From: Lingula anatina
Taxonomy: Eukaryota > Animalia > Brachiopoda
Length of the DNA: 64,000 nt
Reading direction: 5' to 3'
Assembly: GCA_051362555.1 (NCBI GenBank)
Contig: CM120648.1
Coordinates: 2,395,721-2,459,720, forward strand
Under the pieces are notes generated by a model. That model ran no database searches, had not been told where the DNA came from, and saw nothing but the letters and a program-made list of their open reading frames with translations. Shown here one piece after another: positions 26,742 through 60,248 of the stretch; the stretch's first letter is position 1, and each line of letters opens with the position of its first letter. The translations under genes were made by a program, and so were the position numbers.

Positions 26742-26795
<54 letters not shown>

Positions 26796-34080: not shown

Positions 34081-35603
34081 TTAGCACTGAATGTTAAAAT
34101 ATTCAATATAATCTCGAAATTTCTCAAATATTTCCTCCTCATTCAACCCGTACGTCTCCAAGTCGTAATGGTGACGACCATATTTGTTTTGGGAATTTTC
34201 TTTTAAGTACTCCTTCATCTTCGCTTCAGCTTGCTCGCTGAGATCGAGCCCAAACTTATCATAAATCTGCCTCACTGTATCTATGGGCGCTCTCACAAGA
34301 TGTTCGTAGTCTATATCGACGAATCTGTGTTCTTGATCAGGGTGGTTCTTTCTGAATTCTAGGATTTCGTTCCCCGCGTGAAATACGGGGTTGTCTAGTG
34401 CGTCTCTTCCTAAAATATGAAAACAGATAACTAAAACCCAATCAGAAATCGTTGACAAGACAAGCATACGTTATTTACATTAACAGGCTCATGAAACAAA
34501 CAAACAACAAAAACTAAAACAATTTTATAATTTTAAAGGTCGGAAAAGAATCTCATCAGATTATTATTGCAAAGGTTAGCATATATCAAAAGTTAGCGTA
34601 TTTCAGAAGTAAAGAAGAGGCTTAAGAACAAGCCCCTACCTATATCTTTGGGGTCGTAGGCACAAAAGGTGAAGTGTTGCACCACTGAGCACACGGAGGC
34701 AAGCGATTTGCATGGATTGCGGTAGGTGTGGATAAACATTGCGTCCGGATACACCGCCAGGATTGCGTCCAGGTACACCCCGTGAATGGAATCTTTCAGA
34801 ATGACGTGTTGCTCATGGTCTGCTGAGTCTAATAAAAGATGTGGATGTTGAAATGCGTTTCAATGCGATTCTACCGAAAATCAAAATAACATTAAATATA
34901 TGAATATTAATTTAAATATTAATATAAATAGAATTTCTTTATGATAATACGACAAAGAGCGCATTCAGAACAGCGGACTAACAGATCCGCGGATCAGGTA
35001 TGACTAATTAATACCAGAATTTTAATGTTTGTTGAAGAATCCCATGGGGAATCTATTCAATGTCTAATCGGGAATTAAGCGGCAAGCTTTTTTAGTGGTA
35101 GCCATATTTAATCAGCGGATCTGTTAGATCTGTTTTGAATGCGATCAAAAACAACCAAAGGAAAAGGAAACAATTTGAAACGATTAAATTCTATTATGTT
35201 CTGACTCTAAATTTTGAAATGGAGAGGCGATAAAGGTGAATCCTTTTATCATGTCTATAACGACCACATTCCTACACCTACCTCTTGCTAAAAGAATAAG
35301 CTGAAGTTGCAAACGATGGAAACGATAGGCTTCCACCATCTCTTCCTTGGTTCGAGCGCGCACCCAGTCTCTGTATGGTCCAGCGTTACCGCTTATCCCC
35401 TGGTAAAACTTAAATATCCCCATATTGTCGAGCAAAGGGTGACACGCATGAGGACTCATGGCCTGGACGAAGTGAATGTTTTTAAGCAGTGGATTACCTT
35501 TGTACGTGGCATCTGAAATATTTATATATATACATGTATATATATATAATAATAAATTGAAGAACCCTCTCTTACTTCCCCCTCTCTCTCCCTCTCCCTC
35601 TCG

Positions 35604-35650
<47 letters not shown>

Positions 35651-35651
35651 G

Positions 35652-35694
<43 letters not shown>

Positions 35695-36630
35695 GGGGAA
35701 AGAGCATGAGAGATTGTTTTCAAAAACATAAAACTGGTAATCCAATTAATCCATTGCCTCGGCAAAGTCTTATTACGGTCCATACGGTCCACTGAACGCC
35801 CATAAAATAAATACATCAATTATATTACCTAGAAAGAAACTGGACATGAGAACACGCGGATCTTTCCCAGCGTTCATGGCGTCCGCGTTCTCCTCCACGG
35901 GGCACATCAACTCGTAGAAGAGTGGCGAAGTGTTCCGCGGGTCCTGGTACAGCAAGTTCTGCAGAAACGTTGTCCCCGTCCGCGCTGGCCCAATGATGAA
36001 AATAGGCTCCTTGATAGGGCACTTTAAAAACGACAATATACATGTTGAACTCCTAAGTGGTTGAAATGCTATTAATTGCGGATTCAAGTTATTGTGATTG
36101 TGTCTTGTCAAAATTGCTTTTACTGTTTAAGTGTCAGAAAAATATTGCATTTCAATAAGCAACGCGAGAATAAAGTGCATGGTTTACATAAAAACAATGA
36201 GCCATGAAAAAACATTTATGTAGCATCGTGCAGACTAAGTTCTGGGTTAATTTTAAAGCTTCGTATAGTGGTAGGTGTGGTAGCTCTAAACACTCACCTT
36301 GGTCAAATCCACAGTCGGTAGTCGTCTTGATATAGCAAGTCTGTTCTTCATTACCTCCTTCAATCTTCTTTCTATTCCCAGCCTTCCAGCCACCGAGCAG
36401 GTGTCATCTTCACGGTAGCATTTCAACAGTTGAATGCACCCCTGGTACCACCAGCGCCCAGTAAGACTGTCGGACAACAGCAGACGCCGGTCGTTAAGAG
36501 ACAGATCTCGGAGCAGGCTGTCCTCTGTGAGCGGCGTAAAGCGACGCCCCAGGACGACATGGAGTAACCAGTCGCGAAGAACGATGGCACAGTAGCGACA
36601 GAAGATTAGAATATCGCTCAGTAGAGCCAT
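34081..36630 (-). CDS. Sulfotransferase (Sulfotransfer_3-like, bacterial type), copy 1; exons 36630-36298, 36021-35829, 35512-35282, 34828-34640, 34409-34081 (424 aa)
   Basis: 5'-PSB loop PIFIIGPARTGTTFLQNLL, LKDSIHG.YLDAILAVYPDAMFIHTYRNP...S (3'-PB), YEHLVRAP, and C-terminal KYGRHHYDLETYGL. Four GT-AG introns with phases 0,1,1,1. Confidence 0.88.
34957..35146. mobile_element. Harbinger-like MITE in sulfotransferase intron 3; also at 42311-42489, ~47084-47358, ~50846-51124 and 55778-55931
   Basis: Long TIR gcgcattcagaac...aacagatccgcggat / atccgcggatctgttag...gttctgaatgcg with an AAA flank on both sides. Empty site in copy 2 (~38302). Confidence 0.7.
35580..35692. repeat. (CT)n/(GT)n compound microsatellite in sulfotransferase intron 2; homologous tracts in the other copies
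   Basis: Direct reading; similar tracts at about 38710, 42915, 47765, 51525 and 56340. Confidence 0.9.
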
Positions 36631-37552
36631 GGTTTACACTCACTATGGTCATATATACCTCTTATATATTTTTGCTGTTACTGAAGGTAAAAACTCAGGT
36701 AACCGCCCTTACAAGTGGGAACGCGATGACTGAGTGAACTGTTGAACTATCATTTTAGCAACTGAAAGCTTCTTACCTCACACGCCTTATTTAATATTTA
36801 TAAACTCTCGCCTCCGTTTTCTTACATAGTTGTATGGACTACTTTTTTTCAGTGAACCGGTTTTTCAATAGTGTCTACCAGGCCATACTGCGACTTGTAT
36901 TTCATACATTTACGTAATAGATCTGCATAGTGTTCTTTCATAAATGTGCATTCACCCGTGTGTATAGGTGGATGGAGGTGGAGGGTTGTTAAAATATACT
37001 GGAAGGAGTAGTACGAGAATTTGTTCAGATTGAAAACACCAGGCTGGGACAGAGGCGAGGGGGGCGGGGTGCTCGGTTTTTGAAATCTAAAATATCTTAA
37101 CGTGCCTACACTGATAACACACCTTACGACTGCCACATACAGGGTCGGATCTAGGATTGTTTAAAACAGAACCTTGTCTCCTTGGTGTGGGGACAATTTC
37201 ACATCGTACAACGTACTTATTTTGAATTTGCTTTGAAATCAGTGGCGTTACATTTTGAAGTCAAGAAATATGAAGAAGAAAATCTGCCAAATCACGTTAC
37301 AGGCCGCATGCGCGAGGCTCGAGTTGTGTTTGATAGCCGTGAAAGTTTTTCAGGAGTTTCGAAATCATGAATGACGGTGACACCCTGCACTTTTGAGGTT
37401 AAAACTTGTCTCTTTGCTGATTCAATTAATGTATATTGAAAGAAGTACCCATAAGAAATGTAAAGTGGGCCCAAACGCTGCAAAATCTAATTCCTCGCGT
37501 ACAATGTTTCTAATTAAGACATATCAGTAGTTTATATTATTCTGTTATGAAG

Positions 37553-38748
37553 TTAGCACTGAATGTTAAAATATTCAATATAATCTCGAAATTTCTCAAA
37601 TATTTCCTCCTCCTTCAACCCGTACGTCTCCAAGTCGTAATGGTGACGGCCATATTTATTTTGGGGATTTTCTTTTATATACTCCTTCATCTTCGCTTCA
37701 GCTTGCTCGCTGAGATCGAGCCCAAACTTATCATAAATCTGTCGCACCGTATCCATGGGCGATCTAACTAGAAGTTCGTAGTCAATATCGACGAATCTGT
37801 GTTCTTGATGAGGGTGGTTCTTTCTGAATTCTAGGATTTCGTTCCCCGCGTGAAACAGGGGATTGTCTAGGACGTCTCTTCCTAAAATATGAACACAGAC
37901 AACTAAAACGCAATCAGAAATCATTAACAGATTATTAAAGTTAGCATATTTTAGAAGTAAAGATCAGGCTTAAGGACACGCCCCTACCTATATCTTTGAG
38001 GGCGTAGGCACAAGATGTGAGTTGCTGGAGTATTGAGCACACAGAGGCGAGCGATTTGCATGGATTGCGGTAGGTGTGAATGAACATTGCGTCCGGATAC
38101 ACCGCCAGGATTGCGTCCAGGTACAGCCCATGCATGGAATCTTTTAGAATGACGTGTTGGTCATGGCTTGCTGAGTCTAATAAAAGATGCTGAAGTTGAA
38201 ATTATTTTCAAAGCGATTTTGCTCAAAAATCAAAGTAATTTTAAATATTAATATAAAGTTAAATATAAATATGCATAGAATTTCTTTATATCAATACGAC
38301 AAAAGAAATCCAAGGAAAATTAGTTCATTAAATTCTATAATGTTCTGAAACTAAAATTTGAAAAGTAAATCCTTCATATTTTCATTTATTTGTTTATTTA
38401 TTTTTGTCTATAACGACCACATTCCTACACCTACTTCTCGCTAAAAGAATGAGCTGAAGTTGCAAACGATGGAAACGATAGGCTTCCACCATCTCTTCCT
38501 TGGTTCGAGCGCGCACCCAGTCTCTATATGGCCCAGTGTTACTGCTTACCCCTTGGTAAAACTTAAATATTCCCATATTGTTGAACAAATGGAGACACTC
38601 GTGAGGACTCTTGGCCTGGACGTAGTGATGGTTTTTAAGCAGTCGCTTACGTCTGTATGCGGGATCTGAATTTTAAAGAAATAAATAATTTGAGCAGTGT
38701 CTTTCCCCTCCTCCTCTCTCTCCCTCTCTGTCTGTCTCTCTTTCTCTC

Positions 38749-38782
<34 letters not shown>

Positions 38783-40140
38783 TGCGTGTGTGCGTGCGTG
38801 TGAGTGTGAGAAAGAGAAAGGGTCTAAGGGATGGTTCTAAAAAAACATACAACTGGTGATCCATTGCCAACAGAACAGAACAACATTAGAATGGAATGAG
38901 AACCGTAAGGGAACGTTAAATGAGACACTTTTTCACTGGGGAAAGTTTTGTAATACCAAAAAAAATGTTGGGTTTTTGTAGTTTCAACTAATAAAAATAA
39001 ATCCATCAATTATATACCTAGTAAGGAACTGAGCATGAGAACACGCGGATCTTTCCCAGCCTTCACAGCGTCTGTGTTCTCCTCCACGGGGCACATCAAC
39101 TCGTAAAAGAGTGGCGTAGTGTTCCGCGGGTCCTGGTACAGCAAGTTCTGCAGAAACGTTGTTCCCGTCCGCATTGGCCCAATGATGAAAATAGGCTCCT
39201 TGACAGGGCACTTAAAAACGGCAATGTACATGTTGAAATCTTAAGCGGTTGAATTGCTATTAATTGCGGATTTAAGTTATTGTGATTGTGTCTTGTCAAA
39301 ATTGCATTTACTGTTTAAATGACAGAAAAAAGGTTGCATTTCAAAAATTGACATGAATATCAAGTGCATGGTTTACATAAAAAACAATGGGACCATTCAG
39401 ATCGAGAAGAGCCGAGTGCTAGCTAGACCGCGACCAAAATATGGCGGACCTACATGAAAGGAAGACCGCTTAGTCCTGTAATGTTTACTCCGCCTCTCAC
39501 ACGTCTTCCACGCGTTGAATCTCGGCCGGTTGAATTGAGCCAAGATTTATTTACTGTGCTCCTCAGAGACGACGCGTGGGAAGGCGTGTGAGAGGCGGAG
39601 AGACCATTACAGGATTAAGCAGTCCTCCTTTCATGTAGGTCCGCCATATTAAGATCGCTGCCTAGCTAGCACTCATCTCTTCTCAATCTGAATGGGTCCA
39701 ATGATTAATGAAACACCTTTATGTAGCATCGTGCAGACTAAGTTCTGGGTCAATTTTAAAGCTTCGTATAGTGGTACGAGTGGTAGTATCAGACTCTAAA
39801 CACTCACCTTGGTCAAATCCACAGTGGGAAGTCGTCTTGATATAGCAAGTCTGTTTTTTATTACCTCCTTCAATCTCCTTTCTATTCCAAGCCTCCCAGC
39901 CACCGAGCAGGTGTCATCTTCACGGTAACATTTCAACATTTGAGTGAACCCCTGGTACCACCAGCGCCCAGTGAGACTGTCGGACAACAGAAGACGTCGG
40001 TCGTTAAGAGACAGATCTTGGAGCAGGCTGTCCTCTGTGAGCGGCGTAAAGCGACGCCCCAGGCCGACACGGAGTAACCAGTCGAGAAGAACGATGGCAC
40101 AGTAGCGGCAGAAGATAAGAATATCACTCAGTAGTGGCAT
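37553..40140 (-). CDS. Sulfotransferase copy 2 (same 5-exon structure)
   Basis: GPMRTGTT PSB loop, SPHECLHLFNNMG and HTYRNP; splice sites conserved; no stop seen. Confidence 0.86.
39389..39699. mobile_element. PIF/Harbinger-like MITE with ~140-bp TIRs in intron 1 of copy 2
   Basis: gggaccattcagat... / ...atctgaatgggtcc with a 3-bp TSD AAT; absent at the homologous site (aaacaatgag) in the other copies. Confidence 0.8.
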
Positions 40141-41424: not shown

Positions 41425-44400
41425 TTAGCACTGAATGTTAAAATATTCAATATAATCTCGAAATTTCTCAAATATTTCCTCCTCCTTCAACCCGTACGTC
41501 CCCAAGTCGTAATGATGACGACCATATTTAATTTGGGGATTTTCTTTTATATACTTTTTCATCTTCGCTTCAGCTTGCTCGCTGAGATCGAGACCAAACT
41601 TATTATAAATCTGTCGCACTGAATCCATGGGCGATCTAACTAGATGTTCGTAGTCAATATCGACGAATCTGTGTTCTTGATCAGGGTGGTTCTTTCTGAA
41701 TTCTAGGATTTCGTTCCCAGCATGAAACAGGGGGTTGTCTAGGATGTCTCTTCCTAAAACATGAGCACAGACAAATAAAACGCTATCAGAAATCATTGAC
41801 AATACAACTTAGCCAAACTTAACCAAACTCAACCAAACATTGACAGGATCATGAAACAAACAAACAACAAAAACTAAAACGATTTTATAATTATACAGGT
41901 CAGAAAAATATCTCATCAGATTATTATTTCAAAGGTTAGTATATTTCAAAAGATAGTATATTTCAAAAGTTAAGATGCGGTTTAAGGACACGCCCCTACC
42001 TATATCTTTGAGGCCGTAGGCACAAGGAGTAAAGTGCTGCACCAATGAGCAAAAGGAGGCGATCGATTTGCATGGATTGCGGTAGGTGTGGATGAACATT
42101 GCGTCCGGATACACCGCCAGGATTGCGTCCAGGTACACCCCGTGAATGGAATCTTTCAGAATGACTTGTTGGCCATGGCTTGCTGAGTCTAATAAAAGAT
42201 GTTGATCTTGAAATTCATTTTCAGTACGACTTTGCTAAAAAAAAAATCATAATTATTTTAAATATATAAATATAACTACGTACAAAAGTTATTTATAATA
42301 ATACGACAAAGGGCGCATTCAGAACAACGGAATAACGTATCCTTGGATCAATTGTGGCTACCCACTAGAATGTTTGTTAAGTAATCCTCACGGGGAATCT
42401 ATTCAGTGTCTAATCGGGAATTAAGTTTTTTAGTGGGTCGCCATATATTTAATCCGCGGATCTGTTAGTCAGGTGTTCTGAATGCGCCTAAAAACAACCA
42501 AAGGAAAAGGAAACATTTTGAGATGTTTAATTCTATTATGTTCTGACTATAATTTTTGAAATGGAGGGCGGAAAAGGTGAATCCTTTAATCATGTCTATA
42601 ACGACCACATTCCTAAACCTACTTCTTGCTAAAAGAATAAGCTGAAGTTGCAATCGATGGAAACGATAGGCTTCCACCATCTCTTCCTTGGTTCGAGCGC
42701 GCACCCAGTCTCTGAATGGCCCAGTATTACCGATCACCCCTTGGTACAACTTAAATATTCCCATATTGTCGAACAAATGGAAACACTCGTGAGGACTCTT
42801 GGCCTGGATGTTGTGAATGTTTTTACGCAGTCGCTTAACTCGGTACGCGGCATCTGAAATATACGTATATTTATTACAAAATATTTTGAGAACTCTCTTT
42901 CGTTTTCCTCTCCCCCTCTCTCTCTTTTTCACTCTCTCTGCGTGTGTGTGTGTGTGCGCGCGCGTGCACACGCACGCGTGAGTGTGTGTGTGTGTGAGAG
43001 CCAGAGATATGGTTCTCAAAAACATAAATCTGGTAATCCCATGAATCCATTGCCTCGGCAAAGTCAGCAAATGACTCACTTTTTATTACCGTCCGTAGGG
43101 TCCACTGAACGCTCATAAAAGAACAATCCTCAAAGATTTGAAATAACCGAAAACAACTGTTGGGTTGTTGTAGTTTCTACTTACAAAAATAAGTACATCA
43201 ATTAAATACCTAGTAAGGAACTGTAAAAGAGAACATGCAGATCTTTCCCAGCGTTCACAGTCTTATTACGGTCCATACGGTCCACTGAACGCCCATAAAA
43301 TAAATACATCAATTATATTACCTAGAAAGAAACTGGACATGAGAACACGCGGATCTTTCCCAGCGTTCATGGCGTCCGCGTTCTCCTCCACGGGGCACAT
43401 CAACTCGTAAAAGAGTGGCGAAGTGTTATGCGGGTCCTGGTACAGCAAATTCTGAAGAAAGGTTGTCCCCGTCCGCGCTGGCCCAATGATGAAAATAGGC
43501 TCCTTGATAGGGCACTTAAAAACGGCAATGTACATGTTGAACTCTAAGCGGTTGAATTGCTATTAATTGCTGTTTAACTGACAGAAAAAGATTGCATTTC
43601 AATAAGCGACAAGAGCATAAAGTGCATGGTTTACATAAACAAGGCGGCAAAGCTGTCAAATGTACAGACAAAACCCAGAAAATAAAGATGCAGAAAATAG
43701 ATAATTTAGTCAATTTTGATACAATAATAAATAATGCTTATAACAGCACAGTCAATCAACAATACATTTTAATCATACACAGGTAACATGGTCAGTACTG
43801 GATCGACCAAACTCCCTGGGGGTTCACGCTAAATAGCTGTCAGCCGAGCGGGCACGAAAGTTAATTACCCCCTTACAGCTTGTAGTAGGCGGGACGGACA
43901 TTTAAGCCGGATTATCTGACAGTAATCTAGTGAGACTCCCCACGGTGATAGATCGATCTAAAATCTATGGGAAAACGCCCTAAGATTACAGTTTCAGGAC
44001 CATGAGTGCTCAAATTCACATAATGGAAATCCCAACATGTGAAAAATGATGACAGTGCATAAAATAATATTACATAATGTTTGCAGACATAAAAACCAAT
44101 ACAATTGCTCATGTGGAAATGCAGAAAATGCACAGAGCTTCTGGTAGATGGGAGTTAAAAGTTACATCTTGAAGATGCCAGTGTTTGGAAATAATTTAAG
44201 AAATAAAAATAAAACTAATAAAAAATCCCAATAAAGATCATATTAAAACTTTAAATCTAGCTGCATAATCATATGTTTAACCCCACTGAGTTGGGAATAA
44301 CTGAATTGGGAATAATAAGACACTGGTTTTCACTTATTGTGTTATGGGTGTTGCTTATATGCTGAAAGAAGTGAAAAAAACAGCATAACTCCCATACAAA

Positions 44401-45036
44401 TGGCCCGATCATGCTGATTTTCGAACTTGACCTGCATATTATGAATATTTATCAGTTCTGTAATTTTCAAGCCAAAAGAATAGACGATTTTCCACTTATC
44501 GTGTTATCAGTAAAAGTGCATGGCGACGGCGACGACAGACGCAGGTGACAGCTATATGTACAGACACATTTGTGTCTGTACATAAAAACAATGAGTAACG
44601 AAAAACCTTTATGCAGCATCGGGCTGACTAAGTTCTGGGTCAATTTTGAAGCTTCATATTATGGTACGAGTAGGAGCTTCCTGAACATACCTTATACACT
44701 TACCTTGGTCAAATCCACATTCGGAAGTCGTCTTGATATAGCAAGTCTGTTCTTTAATATCTCCTTCCATCTCCTTTCTATCCCCATCCTCCCATCCACC
44801 GAGCAGGTGTCATCTTCACGGTAACATTTCAACAGTTGAGTGAACCCCTGGTACCACCAGCGCCCAGTAAGATTGTCGGACAGCAGGAGACGCCGTTCGT
44901 TTAAAGACAGATCTTGGAGCAGGCTGTCCTCTGTGAGCGGCGTAAAGCGACGCCCCAGGACGACACGAAGTAACCAGTCGAGAAGAACGATGGTGCAGTA
45001 GCGACAGAAGATTAGAATATCGCTCAGTAGTGGCAT
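41425..45036 (-). CDS. Sulfotransferase copy 3
   Basis: GPARTGTT, SPHECFHLFDNMG and HTYRNP. Exon 2 is at about 43514-43322, with an extra partial exon-2 remnant at about 43210-43260. Confidence 0.84.
43638..44585 (-). mobile_element. HINE (same family as 4261 and 24030) inserted in intron 1 of copy 3
   Basis: Reverse-complement head (...gtacagacacatttgtgtctgtac) and tail (aacaaggcggcaaagctgtcaaatgtacagaca). The paralogous empty site gtttacataaaaacaatgag shows insertion into an A/T run with no evident TSD. Confidence 0.8.
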
Positions 45037-45441
45037 AATTAACACTCACTATGGTCACAAACCTGGGTGTAATATACCTGTTATATATTTTTGCTTTCAC
45101 TGAAGAAAAAACTCAGGTAACTGTCCTTACTAGTTGGAACTCGACAACTGAGTGAACTATGAACTATGAAGGCAACCGAACGCAACGGAAAATAGCGCTG
45201 CCTAACCTGGCTTCCTACCTCAGACGCCCTATTTAACATTTATAATCTCTCGTGTCTGTTTTCCTACAAACTTGTATAGACTACAGTTTTTTCAGTGACC
45301 CGGTTTTTCAATACGTGTCTACTATACTGCGGGTTGTATTTTATATCTTACGTAATAGATCTGCATATGGTTATAAGGGTTCTTTTATAAATGCGTCTGC
45401 GTGCGTGCACCCGTGTGTATAGGTGTATGGAGGTGGAGGGT

Positions 45442-45598
45442 CAGGCCCGTAGCCAGCAATTTCAAAAGGGGGTTCTTTTTCTGAAAAAGTGGACCTTTTT
45501 CAATAAAAACTTCATGATCCTAGATCAAATTTTACCCAGAGTGGACCTTTTCCCACCAAAAGGGGCGGTTCTTTCGAACACTCCGAACTCCCACCCTG
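45442..45598. mobile_element. CAGG...CCTG MITE with a 5-bp TSD (AGGGT)
   Basis: The empty site ggtggagggttgttaaaata is present in paralogous spacers; internal sequence matches 28568-28726. Confidence 0.7.
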
Positions 45599-46230
45599 AG
45601 GGTTGTTAAAATATATTGGAAGGAGCAGTATGTCGACATGCCTACTCTGATAAAACACCTTACAAGTGCCATATACACTGGTGGATCTAGGATTATTTGA
45701 ACGGGGGGGGTGGGGGGGCAGTTTTTTAAGAACGAAATGGGCTGGGATGCGAATCCGACCCTTGCCCCTTTGGTGTGGGGTTCGGTGTTTTGCAGGGCAA
45801 ACAGTGCCATTTGGTGCCGTTTAGAACTATGATTCAGCTCTTGAAAATTATAATATCTAGAGTGGAATATTGGTGTGATTTATTTTCCAGAAACCGAAGG
45901 TGGGGTGGGTCAGGACTCCCCCTGACAATTTAGTATTTTAATCAATTTTTCAACCGTAATATGTCTTTTAAAAAGACTTTAGCTTTGACAATAATTCTGG
46001 TAATACTAAAATTTTTCCGAACATCTTTATATAGCTGGTATAGGTACATACTGGATCAGGTATGCCTATGGTACAAATGTAGGTCGTATAGGCACCATGA
46101 CTCGACATTGTGAACTATTATGTGCAATCTTATAGTTCGATGCTTTTCTCAGTTTTTTGGAATTCAGTGTTATTTTTCTAAATTTTTCTAATTAAGACAT
46201 ATCAATAGTTTATATTATTCCGTTATGAAG

Positions 46231-47804
46231 TTAGCACTGAATGTTAAAATTTTCAATATAATCTCGAAATTTCTCAAATATTTCCTCCTCCTTCAATCCG
46301 TACGGCTCCAGGTCGTAATGGTGACGACCATATTTATTTTGGGGATTTTCTTTTATATACTCCTTCATCTTCGCTTCAGCTTGCTCGCTGAGATCGAGCC
46401 CAAACTTATCATAAATCTGTCTCACTGTATCTATGGGCGCTCTCACAAGATGTTCGTAGTCTATATCGACGAATCTGTGTTCTTGATGAGGGTGGTTCTT
46501 TCTGAATTCTAGGATTTCGTTCCCCGCGTGTAACAGGGGGTCGTCTAGGACGTCTCTTCCTAAAATTTGAACATGGACAACTAAAAAACAATCAGAAATC
46601 ATTAACAATACAACTTAACCAAACGTTATTTACGGATAGGATCATGAAACAAATAAACAAAAATTTTACAACTTTCAAAAAAAATCTCATCAGATTATTA
46701 TTTCAAAGGTTAGTATATTTCAAAAAGTTAAGAAGAGGTTTAAGGACACACCCCTACCTATATCTTTGGGGTCGTAGGCACAAGTGGTGTGGTGCTGAAA
46801 CAACGAGCAAACGGATGCGAGTGATTTGCATGGATTGCGGTAGGTGTGAATGAACATTGCGTCCGGATACACCGCCAGGATTGCGTCCAGGTACAGCCCA
46901 TGCATGGAATCTTTCAGAATGACGTGCTGGTCATGGCTTGCTGAATCTAATAAAAGATGATGATGTTAAAATTCGTTTTCAATGCGATTTTCCTAAAAAT
47001 CAAAAGAAATAATAAATAAATATATAAATATAAAGTAATATAAATATAAATATGCATAAAATTTCTTTATAATAAAGCGACGAAGAGCACAATCAGAACA
47101 GAAAACTAACAGATCCGCGGACCAATTATGGCCGACCCATTTAAATGTTTGTTGAGAAATCCCATGGGGAATCTATTCAGTGTCTAACCAGGAATCAAGC
47201 GGCAAGCTTTTTAGAATCTATTCAGTGTCTTATCAGGAATCAAGCGGGAAGCTTTTTAGAATCTATTCAGTGTCTAATCAGGAATCAAGCGGGAGGCTTT
47301 TTAGTGGGTCGCCATATTTGATCCGCGGATCTGTTAGTTCGCTGTTCTGAATGCCATCAAAAACAACCAAAGGAAAGATAACATTTTGAGATGATTAAGT
47401 TCTGATCTTAAATTTTGAATGGATAGGCGAAAAAGGTGAATCCTTTTATTATGTCTATAGCGACCACATTCCTACACCTACTTCTTGCTAAAAGAATAAG
47501 CTGAAGTTGCAATCGATGGAAACGATAGGCTTCCACCATCTCTTCCTTGGTTCGAGCGCGCACCCAGTCTCTATATGGCCCAGTGTTACCGATCACCCCT
47601 TGGTAAAACTTAAATATCCCCATATTGTTGAACAAATGGAAACACTCGTGAGGACTCTTGGCCTGGACGTTGTGAATGTTTTTAAACATTCGTTTACCTC
47701 GTAATGCGACATCTGAAATATGTATATAATATAATACAGTATGTATATAAAAAAAATTTGAGAACTCTCTCTCTTTACTCTCTCTTTCTTACTCTGCGCC
47801 TGTT

Positions 47805-47849
<45 letters not shown>

Positions 47850-48887
47850 GTGAGAGAGAGAGAGCCTGAGAGATGGTTCTCAAAAACATAAAACTGGTAA
47901 TCCCATGAATCTATTGCCTCGGCAAAGTCAGCAAATGACTCAAAGGTTATTACGGTCCATACGGTCCTCGGAACGCCCATAAAAGAACAATCCTCAAGTA
48001 CTGTATTTGAAATACCAAAAACAAAGGTTGGGTTTTTAAAGTTATAATCATTTAAATAAATACAACAATTATATACCTAAAAAGAAACTAAACATGAGAA
48101 CACGCGGATCTTTCCCAGCGTTCACTGCATCTGTGTTCTCCTCCACGGGGCACATCAACTCGTAGAAGAGTGGCGAAGTGTTTCGCGGGTCCTGGTACAG
48201 CAAGTTCTGCAGGTACGTTGTCCCCGTCCGCATTGGCCCAATGATGAAAATAGGCTCCTTGATAGGGCACTTAAAACAGCAATGTACATGTTGACCTCTT
48301 AAGCGGTTGAATTGCTATTAATTGCGGATTTAAGTTATTGTGCTTGTGTCTTGTCAATATTCCTTTTACTGTTTAAGTGACAGAATTTATTGCATTTCAA
48401 TAAGCGACACGAGTATAAAGTGCATGGTTTACATAAAAAACAATGAGTCATGAAAAACTTTTTTGCAGCATCGTGCTAAGTTTTGGGTCAATTTTGAAAC
48501 TTCGTATAATGGTACGAGTGGCAGCATCAGACTCTATACACTCACCTTGGTCAAATCCACATTCGGTAGTCGTCTTGATATAGCAAGTCTGTTATTTAAT
48601 ATTTCTTTCAATCTCCTTTCTATTCCCATCCTCCCGTCCACCGAGCAGGTGGCATCTTCACGGTAACATTTCAACAGTTGAGTGAACCCCTGGTACCACC
48701 AGCGCCCAGTAAGATTGTCAGAGAACAGCAGACGTCGGTCGTTAAGAGACAGATCACGGAGCAGGCTGTCTTCTGTGAGCGGCGTAAAGCGACGCCCAAG
48801 TGCGACACGAAGTAAACAGTCGAGAAGAACAATGGCGCAGTAGCAGCAGTTGTAGCAGAAGATAGAAATATCGCTCAGTAGTGACAT
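46231..48887 (-). CDS. Sulfotransferase copy 4
   Basis: GPMRTGTTYL, SPHECFHLFNNMG and HTYRNP; conserved exon structure. Confidence 0.86.
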
Positions 48888-49969: not shown

Positions 49970-52539
49970 TTAGCACTGAATGTTAAAATATTCAATATAA
50001 TCTCGAAATTTTTCAAATATTTCCTCCTCCTTCAACCCGTACGGCTCCAAGTCGTAATGGTGACGACCATATTTATTTTGGGGATTTTCTTTTATATACT
50101 CCTTTATCATTGCTTCAGCTTCTTCGCTGAGATCGAGCCCAAATTTATCATAAATCTGTCTCACTGTATCTATGGGCGCTCTAACAAGATGTTCGTAGTC
50201 TATATCGACGAATCTGTGTTCTTGATCAGGGTGGTTCTTTCTGAATTCTAGGATTTCGTTCCCCGCGTGAAATAGGGGGTCGTCTAGGACGTCTCTTCCT
50301 AAAATATGAACACAGACAACTAAAACGCAATCAGAAATCATTGACAATACAACTTAACCAAAAGTTATTTACATTGACAGGATCATGAAATAAATTAACA
50401 ACAAAAATTTTAACATTTTTTTTATTTTACAGGTCAGAAAAACCTCATCAGATTATTATTTCAAAGGTTAGTATATTTCAAAAAGTTAAGAAGAGGTTTA
50501 AGGACAAGCCCCTACCTATATCTTTGGGGTCGTAGACACAAGTGGTGAGGTGCTGAAACAATGAGCACACGGAGGCGAGCGATTTGCATGGATTGCGGCA
50601 GGTGTGGATGAACATTGCGTCCGGATACACCGCCAGGATTGCGTCCAGGTACACCCCGTGCATGGAATCTTTCAGAATGACGTGTTGGCCATGGCTTGCT
50701 GAGTCTAATAAAAGATGTTGATGTTAAAATTCGTTTTCAATGCAATTTTCCTAAAAATCAAAATAAATTTTAATATATAAATATATAGTAATATAAATAT
50801 AAATATAAATAGCCATAAAATTTCTTTATAATAAAGCGACAAAAAGAGCAATCAGAACAGCGAACTAACAGATCCGCGGATCAAATATGGCTGACCCACT
50901 TGGATGTTTGTTGAGTTATTCCCATGTAACGGGGAATCTATTCAGAGTCTAATCAGGAATCAAGTGGCAAGCTTTTTAGAATCTATTCAGTGTCTAACCA
51001 GGAATCAAGCGGCAAGCTTTTTAGAATCTATTCAGTGTCTAACCAGGAATCAAGCGGCAAGCTTTTTAGTGGGTCGCCATATTTGATCCGCGGATCTGTT
51101 AGTTCGCTGTTCTGAATGCCATCATAAACAACCAAAGGAAAGGAAACATTTTGAGATGATTAAGTTCTGACCCTTAATTTTGAAATGGAGAGGCGAAAAA
51201 GGCAAATCCTTTTATTATATCTATAACGACCACATTCCTACACTTACTTCTTGCTAAAAGAATAAGCTGAAGTTGCAAACGATGGAAACGATAGGCTTCC
51301 ACCATCTCTTCCTTGGTTCGAGCGCGCACCCAGTCTCTGTATGGACCAGTGTTACCGATCACCCCTTGGTAAAACTTAAATATCCCCATATTGTCGAACA
51401 AATGGAAACACTCGTGAGGACTCTTGGCCTGGACATTGTGAATGTTTCTAAACATTCGTTTACCTCGTAATGCGACATCTGAAATATGTATATACAGTAT
51501 GTATATAAAATATAATTGAGAACTCTCTCTTTACTCTCTCTCTCTCTCTCTCTCTCACTTTCTATCTTTTACCTCGGCAAAATCAGCAAATGACTCACAA
51601 GTTATTACGGTCCATACGGTCCACGGAACGCCCATAAAAGAACAATCCTCAAGTACTGTATTTGAAATACCAAAAACATATGTTGGTTTTTGAGGTTATA
51701 ATTATTTAAATAAATACAACAATTATATACCTAAAAAGAAACTAAACATGAGAACACGCGGATCTTTCCCAGCGTTCACTGCGTCTGTGTTCTCCTCTAC
51801 GGGGCACATCAACTCGTAGAAGAGTGGCGAAGTGTTCCGAGGGTCCTGGTACAACAAGTTCTGCAGGTACGTTGTCCCCGTCCGCATTGGCCCAATGATG
51901 AAAATAGGCTCCTTGATAGGGCACTTAAAACGGCAATGTACATGTTGACCTCTTAAGCGGTTGAATTGCTATTAATTGCGGATTTAAGTTATTGTGCTTG
52001 TGTCTTGTCAATATTCCTTTTACTGTTTAAGTGACAGAATTTATTGCATTTCAATAAGCGACACGAGTATAAAGTGCATGGTTTACATAAAAAACAACGA
52101 GTCATGAAAAACTTTTATGCAGCATCGTGCTACGTTTTGGGTCAATTTTGAAACTTCGTATAGTGGTACGAGTGGCAGTGTCAGACTATACACTCACCTT
52201 GGTCAAATCCACAGTCGGTAGTCGTCTAGATATAGCAAGTCTGTTATTTAATATCTCCTTCAATCTCCTTTCTATTCCCATCCTCCCGTCCACCGAGCAG
52301 GTGTCATCTTCACGGTAACATTTCAACAGTTGAGTGAACCCCTGGTACCACCAGCGCCCAGTAAGACTGTCGGACAGCAGGAGACGCCGGTCGTTAAGAG
52401 ACAGATCTCGGAGCAGACTGTCCTCTGTGAGCGGCGTAAAGCGACGTCCCAGGACGACATGGAGTAACCAGTCGAGAAGAATGATGGCACAGTAGCAGCA
52501 GTAGTAGCAGAAGATAAGAAAATCGCTCAGTAGTGACAT
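49970..52539 (-). CDS. Sulfotransferase copy 5
   Basis: GPMRTGTTYL, SPHECFHLFDNMG and HTCRNP; conserved exon structure; close to copy 4. Confidence 0.86.
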
Positions 52540-52885: not shown

Positions 52886-52919
<34 letters not shown>

Positions 52920-53369
52920 ACCCGTGTGTAAACATGTAGGTGGAGGGTTGCTATAATATATTGGAAGGAGTACTTCAAGAATTGGTTTAGTTTGAATGCA
53001 CCAGGGATGACACCAAGGCGACCAGGGGGGGGGGGGGGCACTTTTTTTGAAAACCGAACAGAATTTATCTAAAATGTCTTGACATGCCTCCACTGATGAC
53101 ACACCGTACATCTGCCATATATTTTTCTTATGGGTGTAATGTGTGACGTGTTTCCGTTAAGGTTTCTCAGCGCTACCAAATCTAATAAGTGTCATTAACT
53201 TGGATACGCTCGTGATCAGGCCATGACAGCGTCGACTTGCTCTGTCAACAGGTGTATTAGTGAGGACATTTCCACAATGTAAGCCGTACTGTGTCAAATT
53301 TAAATGTGCTTTGAAATCAATGGCGTTACATTTTGAAGTCAAGAACTAAGAAGAAGAAAATCTAGTAGG

Positions 53370-54894: not shown

Positions 54895-56394
54895 TTAGCA
54901 CTGAATGTTAAAATATTCAATATAATCTCGAAATTTCTCAAATATTTCCTCCTCCTTCAACCCGTACGTCTCCAAGTCGTAATGGTGACGACCATATTTA
55001 TTTTGGGGATTTTCTTTTATATACGCCTTCATCTTCGCTTCAGCTTGCTCGCTGAGATCGAGCCCAAACTTATTATAAATCTGTCTCACTGTATCTATGG
55101 GCGCTCTAACAAGATGTTCGTAGTCTATATCGACGAATCTGTGTTCTTGATGAGGGTGGTTCTTTCTGAATTCTAGGATTTCGTTCCCCGCGTGAAACAG
55201 GGGGTCGTCTAGGACGTCTCTTCCTAAAATATGAACACAGACAACTAAAACGCAATCAGAAATCTTTGACAATACAACTTAACCATACGTTATTTACATT
55301 GACAGGATCATGAAACAAATTAACAACAAAAACTTAAACAATTTTTTAATTTTACAGGTCAGAAAAAGTCTCAACAGATTATTATTTTAAAGGTTAGTAT
55401 ACTGTATTTCAAAAGTTAGTGTATTTAAAAAAGGTAAGATGAGGTTTAAGGACAAGCCCCTACCTATATCTTTGAGGTCGTAGGCACAAGTAGTGAAGTG
55501 CTGCACCAATGAGCACACGGAGGCGATCGATTTGCATGGATTGCGGTAGGTGTGAATGAACATTGCGTCCGGATACACCGCCAGGATTGCGTCCAGGTAC
55601 ACCCCGTGCATGGAATCTTTCAGAATGACGTGCTGGTCACTGCTTGCTGAGTCTAATAAAAGATGTTGATGTTGAAATTCGTTTTCAGTACGATTTAACT
55701 AAAAAATTCATAATCACATTAAATATATGAATATAAATATAAATATGCAAAAAAGTTATTTATAATTATACGACAAAGGGCGCATTCAGAACAACAGAAT
55801 AACAGATCCTTGGGTGTTTGTTAAGTAATCCTCACGGGGAATCTATTCAGTGTCTAATCGGGAATTAAGTTTTTTAGTGGGTCGCCATATTTGATCCACG
55901 GATCTTTTACTCAGGTGTTCTGAATCCGATCAAAAACATCCAAAAGAAAAGGGAGCAATTTGAGATTACTAAGTTCTATTATGTTCTGATCCTAAGTTTT
56001 GAAATAGAGAGTCGAAAAAGGTTAATCTTTTTATCATGTCTATAACGACCACATGCCTACACCTACTTCTTGCTAAAAGAATAAGCTGAAGTTGCAATCG
56101 ATGGAAACGATAGGCTTCCACCATCTCTTCCTTGGTTCGAGCGCGCACCCAGTCTCTGTATGGTCCACTGTTACCGCTTATCCCTTGGTAAGCCTTAGAT
56201 ATCCCCATATTTTCGAACAAAGGGACACACTCGTGAGGACTCTTGGCCTGGATGTTGTGAATGTTTCTAAACAGTCGCTTACCTCGGTATGCGGCTTCTG
56301 AAATATACGTATATATATGACAAAATAATTTGAGAACTCTCTTTCTTTCCAATCCCCTCTGTCTCTGTCTCTCTCTGTCTCTCTCTCTCTCTGC

Positions 56395-56451
<57 letters not shown>

Positions 56452-57270
56452 CCTGAGAGATGGTTCTCAAAAACATAAAAATGGTAATCCCATTAATCCA
56501 TTGCCTCGGCAATTGCAAAGTCAGCAAATGACGGTCAATACGGTCCACTGAATGCCCATAAAAGAACAATCCTCAAAGATTTGAAATACCAGAATCAATT
56601 GTTGGGTTTTTGTAGTTAACATGCATTAAAATAAATTCATCAATCATATTATACCTAGAAAGAAACTGAACATGAGAACACGTGGATCTTTCCCAGCGTT
56701 CACAGCGTCTGTGTTCTCCTCCACGGGGCACATCAACTCGTAGAAGAGTGGTGTAGTGTTCCGCGGGTCCTGGTACAGCAAGCTCTGCAGAAAGGTTGTC
56801 CCCGTACGCGTTGGCCCAATGATGAAAATAGGCTCCTTGATATGGCACTAAAAACGGCAATTACATGTTGAAGTTATTGTGATTGTGTCTTGTCAAAATT
56901 GCATTTACTGTTTAAGTGACAGAAAAATATTGCATTTCAATAAGCAACGCGAGTATAAAGTGCATGGTTTACATTTAAAAAAAAGAAAAAAAAAAAACAA
57001 TTGAGTAATGAAAAACCTTTATGCAGCATCATGCAATCTAAATTCTGGGTCAATTTTGAAGCTTCGTATAGTGGTACAAATGATAGCTTGCTGATCAGAC
57101 TCTATAGGGGAGACCGGGGCTAGTTGGCCCAGTTAGACACTTTTGGCCTTGTAGAGCCAACTAGGAATGAGTTAGAGTAACAAAACCGGTTTCAAAGTAA
57201 GTCCCATGAACTAAGCTACGTACGCAACGTCATTATATTTCAAATATAATGTCAGATGGCTCACAATTTG

Positions 57271-57323
<53 letters not shown>

Positions 57324-60248
57324 GCAGTTGACGTCGGGGGGCTTCAAGATCGCAAGTTGGCCCCAGAGATGGGGCAAGTTGGCCCCTATACAAAAATAAA
57401 GTAAATATTCCATGTAAACGCCTCGAAGTACATTTTTATACATTTCTGATTAATTAAATTGATTGTTGACAGTCTTTGATGAATAACTTTGAGGCCTATA
57501 AGGCTTCCTCGAAACTTCTCACATATATTTTGGGGGCAATCTACCATCCATCAGGGTCTGAAAATAAACCTATGATCCAGCAAATCATATCCTCTTCTGA
57601 TGCAATCCTGAGGGCACACCCATTTTCTGCACTGTTCTTGATCGGAGATTTTAACACACTGCCAGACCAACAGATCAAACGAACTTTCAGTCTGAGACAA
57701 ATAGTGAGAAGGGGGACACGAAAAAACACCATACTGGATAAAATATTCACCAACATAGACCAATTCTTCAAAGAGCCCGAAATTTTACCATCCATAGGCT
57801 CCTCTGACCACAATGCAGTTCTGTCCTTACCAGAAAATTACAACCGTATCCCCCGAGGTAGAGTGGAAAAGACCTACTCTCGTACATCAGGGAAAAATGA
57901 GAAAATTCTTTTTGCCGGAGAACTTACAAAAATTGACTGGACACCACTCTTTAAACTGAAGTCATGTTCCTAGCAGTTTCAATACTTTGAAAAGACAATG
58001 AATGAGCTCCTTGATACGTACCTCCCAATAAAAGAATCCGCAAAACACACTACCGACAAACCCTGGATAACCACTGACTTCAAGGATCTTACCAAACAGC
58101 GCCAGAAAGCCTTCAGAGAGGGAGACACCCAACTCTCACATAGCATCAAAAACAAACTTAACAGAACCAATAAGAAACTGAAATCATCGTTTTACAAAAA
58201 CAAAATAGAATCACTAAAACAGTCTGACTCTCCCACTTGGTAAAAGAAATCGAAAGAGCTAGCAGGTTTGAATAACAAGAAATGTTCATTAGAGTCACTT
58301 GCTGATAGCACATCAAATGGTAATTACCAGGTTCTAGTAAAAAAGATCGATGAATTTTTTCAAAGTGTTAGTAGCAATTTGACACCTCTTATACCGGCTG
58401 AAAATGTCCACCAGAACTATGTAGTACCAGATGAATTTACTATTAGTGTAAATGATGTCGAAAAACTTCTTTCTGATGTTAAGCTCTCAAAAGCTATAGG
58501 TCCTGACCAAATTCCGAATTGGGTCATCAGATATTTTACAGGCTTCCTGTCCAAGCCCTTGTGCGCAATTTTAATAGCTCTATCAGAGAGATATATGTAC
58601 CTTACACTTGGAAATCTGCAGAGGTAATCCCTGCCCCAAAAGTTAACCAACCAAAAGTGTTCCAGGCTGAACTTAGACCAATATTGCTTACACCAGTGTT
58701 GAGTCATTTGTGGCAAAATGGGTAATAGATGGCCTGAAAATCGATAGGTCCCAATTTGGAGTAGTCAAAAATAGCTCTATATATAGTACCCGCGCTCTAG
58801 TAGAGCTGACTCACAAAATACTAGAAGTTCTTGAACCATCTGCTAAAACCGAACAATGTGAATGCTTAGAATCTGTTCAAAGGAGAGCTCTTAGAATTAT
58901 TTACCCATTTTATACTTACAAGGATGCCCTACAGGCTAGTAATCTCACCTCTCTGAGAGAGAGAAGAGACGTTTTATTTAAGAACTTTTTTACAAAAATC
59001 GAGAATTTCAATAAGTTAGACTATCTGTTTAAAGAAAAGAATCCAAGAAATCTCAGGGTCAGCTTGTTTTAAAGCTTTGGTCTTTTAGTTTATAATTTTA
59101 TTTACTATTAAATACCTTATAATTTTATTTATGATACATTGTAAAACTTCAACCTTTGGGTTGCGGTTTTAGCAAAGAAATTATTATTACTAGTATCATT
59201 AATATTAAATAGTTCAAATGAGGCAGATTTATTGAGGTTTCCGTACGTCATGTTGTAGGGGAGGCCTATGTGTTGCAAGAACCAAAATATCTATCAATAA
59301 AATCTGTTTTGTTTTAATAAATAAAAAATTAATAATGGTATAAAGCAGGTTTTTAATGTATGAAAACGAATAATAATTTTCCGATTTAAAAGAAAGTAAC
59401 AAATTCAGTTTTTAACCATTGAGTTACAGCTGTAGTTTCAACAATGGTCTCTAGCTCTGTTGCGCGCAAAGGTTTGTGGCTAATATGAGGATCCAACTTG
59501 CCCCGAGTCAAGGGGGCCAACTAGCCCCGGGTGCACACTTTTTTATTTAAAGGATGGCAGCCATTTGTGGAGCTAGAATGAGCAACGATGATACATGTCT
59601 GTGAAACTTGAAACAATGAGCTTCAGTTTGATGCTCTATACATATATTACATTCGATCAAAAGCCTATGAAAATAGATTTTTAAATCTCTTAAACAAAAT
59701 TACTTTTAGGTGCAAAAATTATTTATTTCAACTCCCCGCATACGTAAAACATTTTAACGTCCGACACTTCCTCAGCATTGTAGGCTACGGTCACTTTACA
59801 AGAGTACGTGGCCATTTTTTTTTTACCTCGTAGTTACTTTTTAATAAATTGACGAGGGGCAAACTTACTCCGGGGTCCAACTAGCCCGGGTCTCCCCTAC
59901 ACTCACCTTGGTCAAGTCCACAGTCGGTAGTCGCCTAGATATAGCAAGTCTGTTCTTTATTATTTCCTTCCATCTGATTTCTATCCTCATCCTCCCAGCC
60001 ACCGAGCAGGTGTCATCTTCACGGTAACATTTCAACAGTTGAGTGAACCCCTGGTACCACCAGCGCCCAGTAAGATTGTCGGACAGCAGCAAACGGCGGT
60101 CGTTAAGAGACAGATCTCGGAGCAGGCTGTCCTCTGTGAGCGGAGTAAAGCGACGCCCCAGGACGACATGGAGTAACCAGTCTAGAAGAACGATTGCGCA
60201 GTAGCAGCAGTAGTAGCTGAAGATAAGAATATCGTTGAGTAGAGGCAT
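54895..60248 (-). CDS. Sulfotransferase copy 6 (intron 1 enlarged by a 2.8-kb nested insertion)
   Basis: GPTRTGTTFLQSLL, SPHECVPLFENMG and HTYRNP. The donor gtgagtgta and acceptor tttttag are retained. Confidence 0.82.
57107..59897. mobile_element. Tc1/mariner-pogo-type non-autonomous DNA element with a TA TSD
   Basis: TIRs GGGGAGACCGGGGCTAGTTGG / CCAACTAGCCCGGGTCTCCCC flanked by TA. The empty site cagactctatacactcacc is seen in copy 4. A related end lies at about 60771. Confidence 0.85.
57476..59190 (+). mobile_element. Decayed non-LTR retrotransposon (CR1/L2-group, APE endonuclease + RT) nested in the TA element
   Basis: APE motifs IYHP, LIGDFN, LDKIFTN and SSDHNAV; RT-proximal motifs KPWIT, KAIGPDQIP, WKSAEVIPAPK, LRPILLTPVLS and QFG; C-terminal LESVQRRALRIIYP. 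Carries stops, frameshifts and loss of the RT core, and ends in an (ATT)n tail. Confidence 0.85.

What the first reader, a model, noticed from the sequence alone, without database searches (positions are those of the whole stretch)
34081..60248. Six-gene tandem array of intron-bearing, bacterial-type sulfotransferases
Seen: six ~424-aa paralogs with identical 4-intron structure and no stops found. Known: the motif set (PIFIIGPxRTGTT; LKxxxH..LDA.LAVYPDA.FIHT.R.P; YExLVxxP; C-terminal K.GRH.Y.L..YGL) resembles bacterial/mycobacterial Stf-type Sulfotransfer_3 enzymes more than the canonical animal cytosolic SULTs or Golgi carbohydrate sulfotransferases. Inference: an uncharacterised animal sulfation system, possibly of horizontal or patchy ancient origin, that was then intronised and amplified. 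Candidate roles are detoxification of dietary or environmental compounds, or synthesis of sulfated metabolites.
Basis: partly seen in the sequence, partly recalled or inferred. Interest (0 to 1): 0.8.

Follow-up and report, generated by a model that had tools for sequence, protein, structure and literature searches.

The report
Bacterial-type sulfotransferase array in a brachiopod
A lamp-shell (brachiopod) genome carries six side-by-side, intron-containing copies of a gene whose closest solved relatives are mycobacterial sulfate-transferring enzymes; relatives also occur in an annelid worm and a rotifer, so this is likely an old, overlooked animal enzyme branch, predicted to attach sulfate to small fat-soluble molecules.

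Summary
Confirmed: six minus-strand genes (34081-60248), each with five exons, four GT-AG introns at identical positions and an open frame (424 or 427 aa); 86-94% identical, dS 0.16-0.22, dN/dS 0.15-0.42. Copy 3 equals a Lingula anatina RefSeq protein. They are PF13469 proteins with the whole fold of mycobacterial STF9/STF1 (Z 39; other sulfotransferases 15 or less) and intact PAPS-binding motifs. Low-level, correct-strand RNA covers exons; splicing was not seen. The family is not confined to this locus: about 15 more Lingula genes, four Owenia (annelid) proteins, a rotifer protein and unnamed, partly transcript-like sequences form one branch that excludes all 26 named bacteria (SH-aLRT 94). 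So recent transfer into Lingula is unlikely; an old, patchily kept eukaryotic branch, re-amplified by tandem duplication, fits best. Likely job: PAPS-dependent sulfation of small lipophilic alcohols, with copies diverging in acceptor-side segments (inferred). No paper on animal members turned up in six searches aimed at them.

The parts
54895..60248 (-). Copy 1, 427 aa; exons 60248-59907, 56847-56655, 56297-56067, 55652-55464, 55223-54895; intron 1 (3059 nt) holds a LINE-like fragment
   Evidence: first 259 aa match RefSeq LOC106176680 at 255/259
49970..52539 (-). Copy 2, 427 aa; exons 52539-52198, 51923-51731, 51478-51248, 50704-50516, 50298-49970
   Evidence: XP_013414631.1 426/427
46231..48887 (-). 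Copy 3, 427 aa; exons 48887-48546, 48269-48077, 47712-47482, 46946-46758, 46559-46231; the reference for residue numbers (P0004)
   Evidence: XP_013414629.1 427/427; RNA over exons 3-5; model pLDDT 92
41425..45036 (-). Copy 4, 424 aa; exons 45036-44704, 43514-43322, 42853-42623, 42188-42000, 41753-41425
   Evidence: low RNA depth over exon 1; no RefSeq protein above 91% among those returned
37553..40140 (-). Copy 5, 424 aa; exons 40140-39808, 39210-39018, 38665-38435, 38176-37988, 37881-37553
   Evidence: XP_013414628.1 418/424
34081..36630 (-). Copy 6, 424 aa; exons 36630-36298, 36021-35829, 35512-35282, 34828-34640, 34409-34081; open frame, but Ala at the predicted catalytic Glu
35446..35448 (-). 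Codon GCG (Ala) in copy 6 exon 3 at the position of Glu201 of copy 3
45037..45200 (-). Conserved non-coding block upstream of the ATG, present before all six copies (copy 4 given as example), with a pyrimidine-rich AG about 60 nt before the ATG; probable 5' UTR or splice acceptor (inferred)
   Evidence: (D11, D13)

Best explanation
The six genes are tandem duplicates within a Lingula family of STF1/STF9-like proteins that likely descends from an old, patchily kept eukaryotic branch and is predicted to transfer sulfate from PAPS to the hydroxyl of small lipophilic acceptors. Shown: gene structure, open frames, dN/dS below 1, family and fold, the branch shared with Owenia and a rotifer, low-level RNA. 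Inferred mechanism (copy 3 numbering): Arg128 in the G-P-x-R-T-G-T-T loop holds the 5'-phosphosulfate, Arg292 and Ser300 hold the 3'-phosphate, Glu201 deprotonates the acceptor, which attacks sulfur in one in-line step. The acceptor would lie in a deep cleft walled by segments 174-225 and 301-315, where the copies differ most, so the array likely widens the acceptor range (sterol-, lipid- or phenol-type compounds from sediment and food, or own metabolites). Copy 6, lacking the Glu, is likely inactive or weak. The hydrophobic N-terminal helix likely attaches the enzyme to a membrane.
For: Pfam PF13469 119.8 bits, cut-off 27. Only 2zq5 (STF1, E 3e-31) and 2z6v (STF9, E 2e-29) match in PDB sequences at E<=0.01; fold TM 0.73 and 0.76 against 0.36 or less for other listed chains, Z 39.1 and 38.8 over 374 and 359 residues against 15.3 or less. 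G125, R128, R292, S300 invariant and E201 at least 90% conserved in 58 rows; these are the features that define PAPS-dependent sulfotransferases in PMC11625862 (passages). R128 and E201 align with chain positions 116 and 190 of 2z6v; that these are STF9's catalytic Arg96 and Glu170 and that a fatty acid sat in its cleft is recalled (the STF9 cloning paper is not held). dN/dS 0.15-0.42 in 15 of 15 pairs. Hand count's conservation line: 39 of 67 columns vary in 174-225 plus 301-315, against 72 of the other 360 (windows chosen after seeing the data). 15 of 31 bacterial loci have a lipid or small-molecule redox enzyme, acyl-CoA ligase or alkylsulfatase within two ORFs, 1 of 31 a glycosyltransferase. 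Tree: 26-row branch of Lingula, Owenia, rotifer and 10 unnamed rows, SH-aLRT 94, with all 26 named bacteria outside; FastTree on 228 rows gives a matching 40-row branch at 97. The contig of unnamed P0126 has about 1.1 kb of AT-rich non-coding tail, as a eukaryotic mRNA would. Lingula, Owenia and P0196 share K-D-x-x-H where the bacterial rows mostly have K-x-P-x-H.
Against: No activity or substrate was tested. The neighbour count has no background control, several loci are related, and the bacteria are only about 30% identical, so the acceptor class is a weak transfer. The tree has no bootstrap, no AU test and no root, long end branches (median 0.76), and Owenia, rotifer and two unnamed rows have odd composition, so the eukaryotic branch could be partly an attraction artefact; 10 of its 26 rows are unnamed. 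RNA depth on exons is only about 0-9, no intron-skipping joint is among the 15 shown (65 hidden), and reads differ from the window letters, so no copy is shown to be expressed as assembled. dN/dS up to 0.42 is also what relaxed selection would give. The best non-STF folds are heparan-sulfate 3-O-sulfotransferases (Z 15.3), which act on sugars.
Confidence: 0.55

Rival explanations
1. The animal genes came from bacteria by an old horizontal transfer into an early spiralian (or by more than one transfer, the rotifer and protist members being separate), then gained introns and expanded in Lingula and Owenia. Same chemistry, different origin.
For: The family is overwhelmingly non-animal in what was named: 6,613 representatives at E<=0.001; the three Atlas clusters shown for copy 3 are 98-100% bacterial; named animals are only a brachiopod, an annelid and a bdelloid among 20 look-ups. 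Lingula plus Owenia plus P0196 form their own branch (93) and the rotifer lies on another.
Against: No named bacterium is sister to the animal rows. A cluster that is 70% eukaryotic, mostly diatoms, is the first Atlas hit of the rotifer protein (a lead only), which points to wider eukaryotic presence and so to loss as much as transfer. No root; only 20 of the 150 representatives were looked up by name.
Confidence: 0.3
2. They are membrane-anchored secretory-pathway enzymes that sulfate glycans or glycolipids of the shell, pedicle or mucus matrix, in parallel with the expanded CHST3-like family of Lingula.
For: Hydrophobic N-terminal helix 2-30; Glu-type base and next-best folds shared with heparan-sulfate and tyrosylprotein sulfotransferases; the Lingula genome paper reports 30 carbohydrate sulfotransferases expressed in larvae and mantle.
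Against: The paper's family is named after CHST3, a different family; many bacterial relatives carry a comparable N-terminal helix in the same place and there is no stem between it and the folded domain; bacterial neighbours are rarely glycosyltransferases (1 of 31). No signal-peptide or transmembrane predictor was run.
Confidence: 0.2
3. The array is birth-and-death turnover with little gain of function: extra copies drift, some towards pseudo-enzymes or pure lipid binders.
For: Copy 6 lacks the Glu; the distant paralog P0137 has lost both the PSB Arg and the Glu; two RefSeq relatives stop after exon 3 (P0011, P0012); low RNA depth; mobile-element pieces in introns.
Against: 6 of 6 frames are open after dS about 0.2, with dN/dS below 0.45 in all pairs; columns 226-255 are invariant while 174-225 vary.
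Confidence: 0.2
4. Assembly artefact (uncollapsed haplotypes) or bacterial contamination.
For: The genome is heterozygous (1.6%); further near-copies lie on other RefSeq scaffolds.
Against: dS 0.16-0.22 between copies; different intron lengths and inserts; spliceosomal introns; animal neighbours INTS11, Bin3 methyltransferase and EFHD; RefSeq holds related models on one 243,670-bp scaffold with small sequence differences from the window.
Confidence: 0.02

Closest known systems
Mycobacterium avium STF9 (PDB 2Z6V) and Mycobacterium tuberculosis STF1 (PDB 2ZQ5)
   Same: Whole fold, including the N-terminal helical part (model range 32-427; Z 39.1 and 38.8; rmsd about 3 A); Arg-type PSB loop, R-x7-S motif, aligned Glu, C-terminal helix motif.
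   Different: Only 22-28% identical; intron-bearing animal genes; K-D-S-x-H in place of K-[NM]-P-S-H; a longer hydrophobic N-terminal helix; natural acceptor unknown here and, as far as recalled, for these two enzymes.
Pfam PF13469 Sulfotransfer_3 (includes NodH, polyketide sulfotransferase domains, TPST-like enzymes)
   Same: Full profile matched, 1-215 of 216 positions.
   Different: The Pfam family is broad; CurM, olefin-synthase and TPST structures match only the core (TM 0.36 or less).
Animal sulfotransferase classes SULT, TPST and CHST (the three groups named in PMC12506393, passage), including the CHST3-like expansion of Lingula (PMC4595640)
   Same: PAPS-binding core and, by inference, the same in-line transfer chemistry.
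   Different: Z 15.3 or less and 10-17% identity for the listed animal chains; these genes fit none of the three groups.
Uncharacterised Owenia fusiformis proteins (CAH1776477.1, CAH1800078.1, CAH1783977.1, CAH1774912.1) and Didymodactylos carnosus CAF1093859.1
   Same: Same branch; CAH1776477.1 is 35% identical over 368 aa; Owenia rows share K-D-x-x-H.
   Different: The four Owenia rows form their own group (96), so the expansions look independent; whether they are arrayed or share introns could not be seen.

Membership tests
PAPS-dependent sulfotransferases (PF13469) | Pfam score above the curated cut-off | tested here: met
   119.8 and 119.9 bits for P0004 and P0003, cut-off 27
PAPS-dependent sulfotransferases (PF13469) | 5'-PSB loop with Lys or Arg | tested here: met
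   G-P-x-R128-T-G-T-T in 6 of 6 copies; R128 invariant in 58 rows; feature from PMC11625862
PAPS-dependent sulfotransferases (PF13469) | 3'-phosphate motif R-x7-S | tested here: met
   R292 and S300 in 6 of 6 copies, invariant
PAPS-dependent sulfotransferases (PF13469) | Catalytic base (His or Glu), copies 1-5 | tested here: met
   E201 present in 5 of 6 copies, at least 90% conserved; its role as the base rests on alignment to STF9 and on recall
PAPS-dependent sulfotransferases (PF13469) | Catalytic base, copy 6 | tested here: not met
   Ala at that position; another residue such as H192 or H271 could substitute, untested
PAPS-dependent sulfotransferases (PF13469) | Sulfate transfer from PAPS to an acceptor | not testable with these tools
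   needs an assay
STF1/STF9-like subfamily | Whole-chain fold with the N-terminal helical part | tested here: met
   TM 0.73-0.76, Z about 39, far above the next rows
STF1/STF9-like subfamily | Closest solved sequences | tested here: met
   2 of 2 hits at E<=0.01 for the single protein; E 1e-67 or better against 1e-7 for the next, with the profile
Stf0 trehalose sulfotransferase (PF09037) | Stf0 profile and fold | tested here: not met
   PF09037 not reached by the full protein at E<=0.001; 1tex TM 0.28, rank 35
Stf3 menaquinone sulfotransferase | Closer to Stf3 than to STF1/STF9 | not tested
   no Stf3 sequence or structure was on hand
Animal cytosolic SULT (PF00685) | PF00685 as best profile and SULT fold | tested here: not met
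   27.4 bits against 119.8; best SULT Z 12.5
Golgi carbohydrate or tyrosylprotein sulfotransferases | Sequence and fold closest to CHST, HS-ST or TPST | tested here: not met
   core-only matches, Z 15.3 or less, identity 17% or less
Golgi carbohydrate or tyrosylprotein sulfotransferases | Type II membrane anchor and stem | tested here: inconclusive
   hydrophobic helix 2-30 in the model, comparable helix in bacterial rows; no predictor run
Recent bacterium-to-Lingula transfer | Nesting inside one bacterial group, no other eukaryote in between | tested here: not met
   Lingula paralogs, Owenia and unnamed rows lie between the array and any named bacterium; no AU test

The most novel reading that the evidence does not exclude
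Animals have a fourth, undescribed class of PAPS-dependent sulfotransferase, of bacterial STF1/STF9 type, acquired once early in spiralian or eukaryote history, kept in sediment-dwelling brachiopods and annelids, and expanded to about 20 genes in Lingula as a diversifying battery that sulfates lipophilic compounds; identical intron phases may even let exons of different copies be spliced together, as one RefSeq isoform (copy 2 exons 1-3 with copy 6-like exons 4-5) suggests.
Probability: 0.3. Interest if true: 0.7.

Novelty: new variant of a known kind. Interest (0 to 1): 0.46.

Why it matters
Animal sulfotransferases are usually sorted into SULT, TPST and CHST groups (PMC12506393). These genes fit none; they extend a family known structurally only from mycobacteria into at least three animal phyla. 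Five near-identical, probably active paralogs that differ mostly in predicted acceptor-side segments, plus one natural Glu-to-Ala copy, make a ready-made set for finding the acceptor class, which would also inform the thousands of unassigned bacterial relatives. The limits: the genes are already in RefSeq as uncharacterised PF13469 proteins, tandem arrays of metabolic enzymes are common in Lingula, and neither transfer nor function is shown.

Tried and rejected
No whole genome is held for this window, so other loci were seen only as RefSeq proteins and intron positions could not be compared with Owenia or older paralogs. No RNA holder was listed by the run index; four raw-read runs with the same species label were laid on 43100-47740 only, which leaves copies 1, 2, 5, 6 and every intron 2 untested. 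The careful tree with bootstrap, the AU test, regional dN/dS and a hydropathy scan did not run because the script machine was lost. NCBIfam gave only sub-threshold NoeE matches (about 19 bits, cut-off 500): rejected. The profile word search added no named eukaryote and missed several rows of its own query, so it says nothing about absence. Locus scans with the broad alignments A1 and A2 had no usable conserved stretch. The Lingula CHST3 expansion was considered as the same family and rejected. The primary STF9 paper and Mougous 2002 are not held. Earlier scan notes: nothing by sequence or genome; six word hits concern other families. The Atlas had no structure for either query. Paper searches were read as listings; none showed a study of animal members. 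Most subscription papers and all but one supplement were not seen.
Full report
Observation. The window holds six head-to-tail genes on the minus strand between 34081 and 60248. Each exon occurs exactly six times. Chains of five exons with four GT-AG introns in phases 0, 1, 1, 1 give open frames of 427, 427, 427, 424, 424 and 424 aa with no internal stop. The proteins are 86-94% identical; in 15 of 15 pairs dS is 0.158-0.222 and dN/dS 0.15-0.42 (Nei-Gojobori). Copy 3 is letter for letter the Lingula anatina RefSeq protein XP_013414629.1; copy 2 matches XP_013414631.1 at 426/427, copy 5 XP_013414628.1 at 418/424, and the first 259 residues of copy 1 LOC106176680 at 255/259. The neighbours are ordinary animal genes: an INTS11 exon, a GLTP-domain gene and a Bin3 methyltransferase, and an EFHD exon. 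With 1.6% heterozygosity reported for the genome (PMC4595640, passage), the copies are too divergent to be alleles.

Expression. The run index listed no RNA holder. Four raw-read runs with the same species label (about 6% of three runs, 25% of one) were laid at 90% likeness on 43100-47740, which holds exons 1-2 of copy 4 and exons 3-5 of copy 3. Exon bins have depth of about 0-9. In 46200-46974 all depth in X1 (2.9-8.9) and X3 (0.3-5.6) has the first mate on the + strand, which in most stranded libraries means minus-strand RNA, the genes' strand; X7 has both directions. Repeat pieces in intron 1 and between genes reach hundreds to over a thousand and fill the joint table; no intron-skipping joint is among the 15 rows shown, 65 are hidden. 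At 46816, 10 of 13 X1 reads carry the letter that only copy 3 has among the six, yet at 46822 13 of 13 carry the letter of the other copies, so the reads come from alleles or paralogs that differ from the window. The family is transcribed at a low level; expression of each copy and splicing are not shown here, though RefSeq's models use the same junctions.

Family. Copy 3 scores 119.8 bits on PF13469 and 27.4 on PF00685. Among solved sequences only STF1 (2zq5) and STF9 (2z6v) match at E<=0.01. An AlphaFold2 model from a 58-row alignment (pLDDT 92) matches them over nearly the whole chain (TM 0.73 and 0.76; Z 38.8 and 39.1); heparan-sulfate, tyrosylprotein, polyketide and cytosolic sulfotransferases follow at Z 15.3 or less. 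The PSB arginine (R128), the 3'-phosphate pair (R292, S300) and a glutamate (E201) are invariant or nearly so; these are the defining features given in PMC11625862 (passages). R128 and E201 align with chain positions 116 and 190 of 2z6v; I recall these as STF9's catalytic Arg96 and Glu170 and recall a fatty acid in its cleft, but did not see the papers (the cloning paper is not held). Copy 6 has Ala at the Glu position.

Distribution and origin. The word search returned 74 proteins of 3,590 candidates: 11 from Lingula (the query included) and 63 unnamed or bacterial, at 24-34%. The full HMMER search found 6,613 representatives at E<=0.001 and 534 at E<=1e-30, and listed 150. Of 20 looked up by name (the 10 best after P0005, then 10 picked from the tree), 5 were further Lingula paralogs, 4 Owenia fusiformis, 1 the bdelloid Didymodactylos carnosus and 10 without organism. 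In all about 21 Lingula genes were seen: 6 here, 4 close ones on two other scaffolds, 7 at about 50%, 4 at about 30-34%. FastTree on 228 rows puts these with 13 unnamed rows in a 40-row branch (97). IQ-TREE (quick search, LG+C20, 79 rows I chose: 3 of 6 window copies, 8 Lingula, 4 Owenia, 1 rotifer, 37 unnamed, 4 named bacterial proteins, 22 of 33 bacterial loci) gives: array plus the 50% paralogs 100; Lingula, Owenia and P0196 93; with four more unnamed rows 97; with the rotifer group 94; all 26 named bacteria outside. The contig behind unnamed P0126 ends in about 1.1 kb of AT-rich non-coding sequence like a 3' UTR, and the first Atlas hit of the rotifer protein is a cluster 70% eukaryotic, mostly diatoms (lead only). 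This argues against a recent transfer into Lingula and for an old eukaryotic branch kept patchily. It cannot tell inheritance with loss from an old transfer: the tree is unrooted, has no bootstrap or AU test, branches are long, several rows have odd composition, and 130 of 150 representatives were not looked up by name.

Mechanism. Shown: motifs and fold. Inferred: PAPS binds at R128 and R292/S300, E201 deprotonates an acceptor hydroxyl, sulfate moves in one in-line step. For the acceptor class, 79 neighbour ORFs (75 of 103 listed, plus 4) from 31 of 33 bacterial loci were scanned: 15 loci have short-chain or zinc dehydrogenases, P450s, PhyH dioxygenases, an acyl-CoA ligase, a ketosteroid hydroxylase, polyketide domains or alkylsulfatases within two ORFs, 1 has a glycosyltransferase and 1 a PAPS-reductase-domain gene (no background control, some loci related). 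This and the recalled fatty-acid ligand point to lipophilic small molecules. Among the six copies, 39 of 67 columns vary in 174-225 and 301-315 against 72 of the other 360 (hand count; windows chosen afterwards), while 226-255 is invariant; by homology these segments would line the acceptor side. Diversification of acceptor range is therefore the favoured reading, with relaxed selection as a live rival.

Literature. Ten searches were seen as listings; six of them aimed at animal members and showed none. Passages were read in PMC4595640 (main text and two supplement passages: its expanded family is CHST3-like), PMC12403961, PMC3141025, PMC12506393 and PMC11625862; PMC6072979 and PMC11576661 mention STF9 only in their reference lists. 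Subscription papers and other supplements were not seen, so a mention in a gene-family or transfer table could have been missed.

Verdict. The array is the young tip of an overlooked animal branch of STF1/STF9-type enzymes rather than a one-off acquisition. New variant of a known kind; interest 0.46.

Noticed in passing
RefSeq protein P0007 (XP_013414630.1), against window copies 2 and 6: This isoform joins copy 2 exons 1-3 to copy 6-like exons 4-5. Equal intron phases keep such joins in frame; it may be a read-mapping artefact or real read-through splicing that skips copy 6's Glu-less exon 3.
   Followed up: partly
window 57470-59072 (+): Broken LINE-like endonuclease and reverse-transcriptase fragment inside intron 1 of copy 1; weak Pfam Exo_endo_phos_2 match, E 0.041.
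   Followed up: no
window 43150-43270: A second partial copy of the 3' end of exon 2 with its donor site lies in intron 2 of copy 4 (D15).
   Followed up: no
window 43565-44030, 44340-44590, 45441-45579: Interspersed repeat pieces in copy 4 intron 1 and upstream of it draw hundreds to over a thousand RNA reads from elsewhere in the genome.
   Followed up: no
window 300-530 (-) and 2262-2762 (+): An INTS11 exon lies head to head with a GLTP-domain gene; the human CPTP and INTS11 genes are neighbours too (recalled, not checked).
   Followed up: no
window 21587-29009 (+): Bin3-type (MEPCE-like) methyltransferase exons.
   Followed up: no
window 61826-62041 (+): First exon of an EFHD1/2-like EF-hand gene.
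   Followed up: no
window 8122-9483 (-): A 454-codon lysine- and glutamate-rich open frame with no Pfam match, probably a large exon of an unidentified gene.
   Followed up: no
window 47169-47340 and 50934-51105: A 45-nt unit, three times in intron 3 of copies 2 and 3 and once in copy 6, marks copies 2 and 3 as the youngest pair (D14; 94% identical proteins).
   Followed up: no
L016:4488-5729, L022:4471-5715 and protein P0088: Bacterial relatives sit next to alkylsulfatase-like genes, and one is fused to a metallo-beta-lactamase-fold domain, hinting at paired sulfation and desulfation in bacteria.
   Followed up: no
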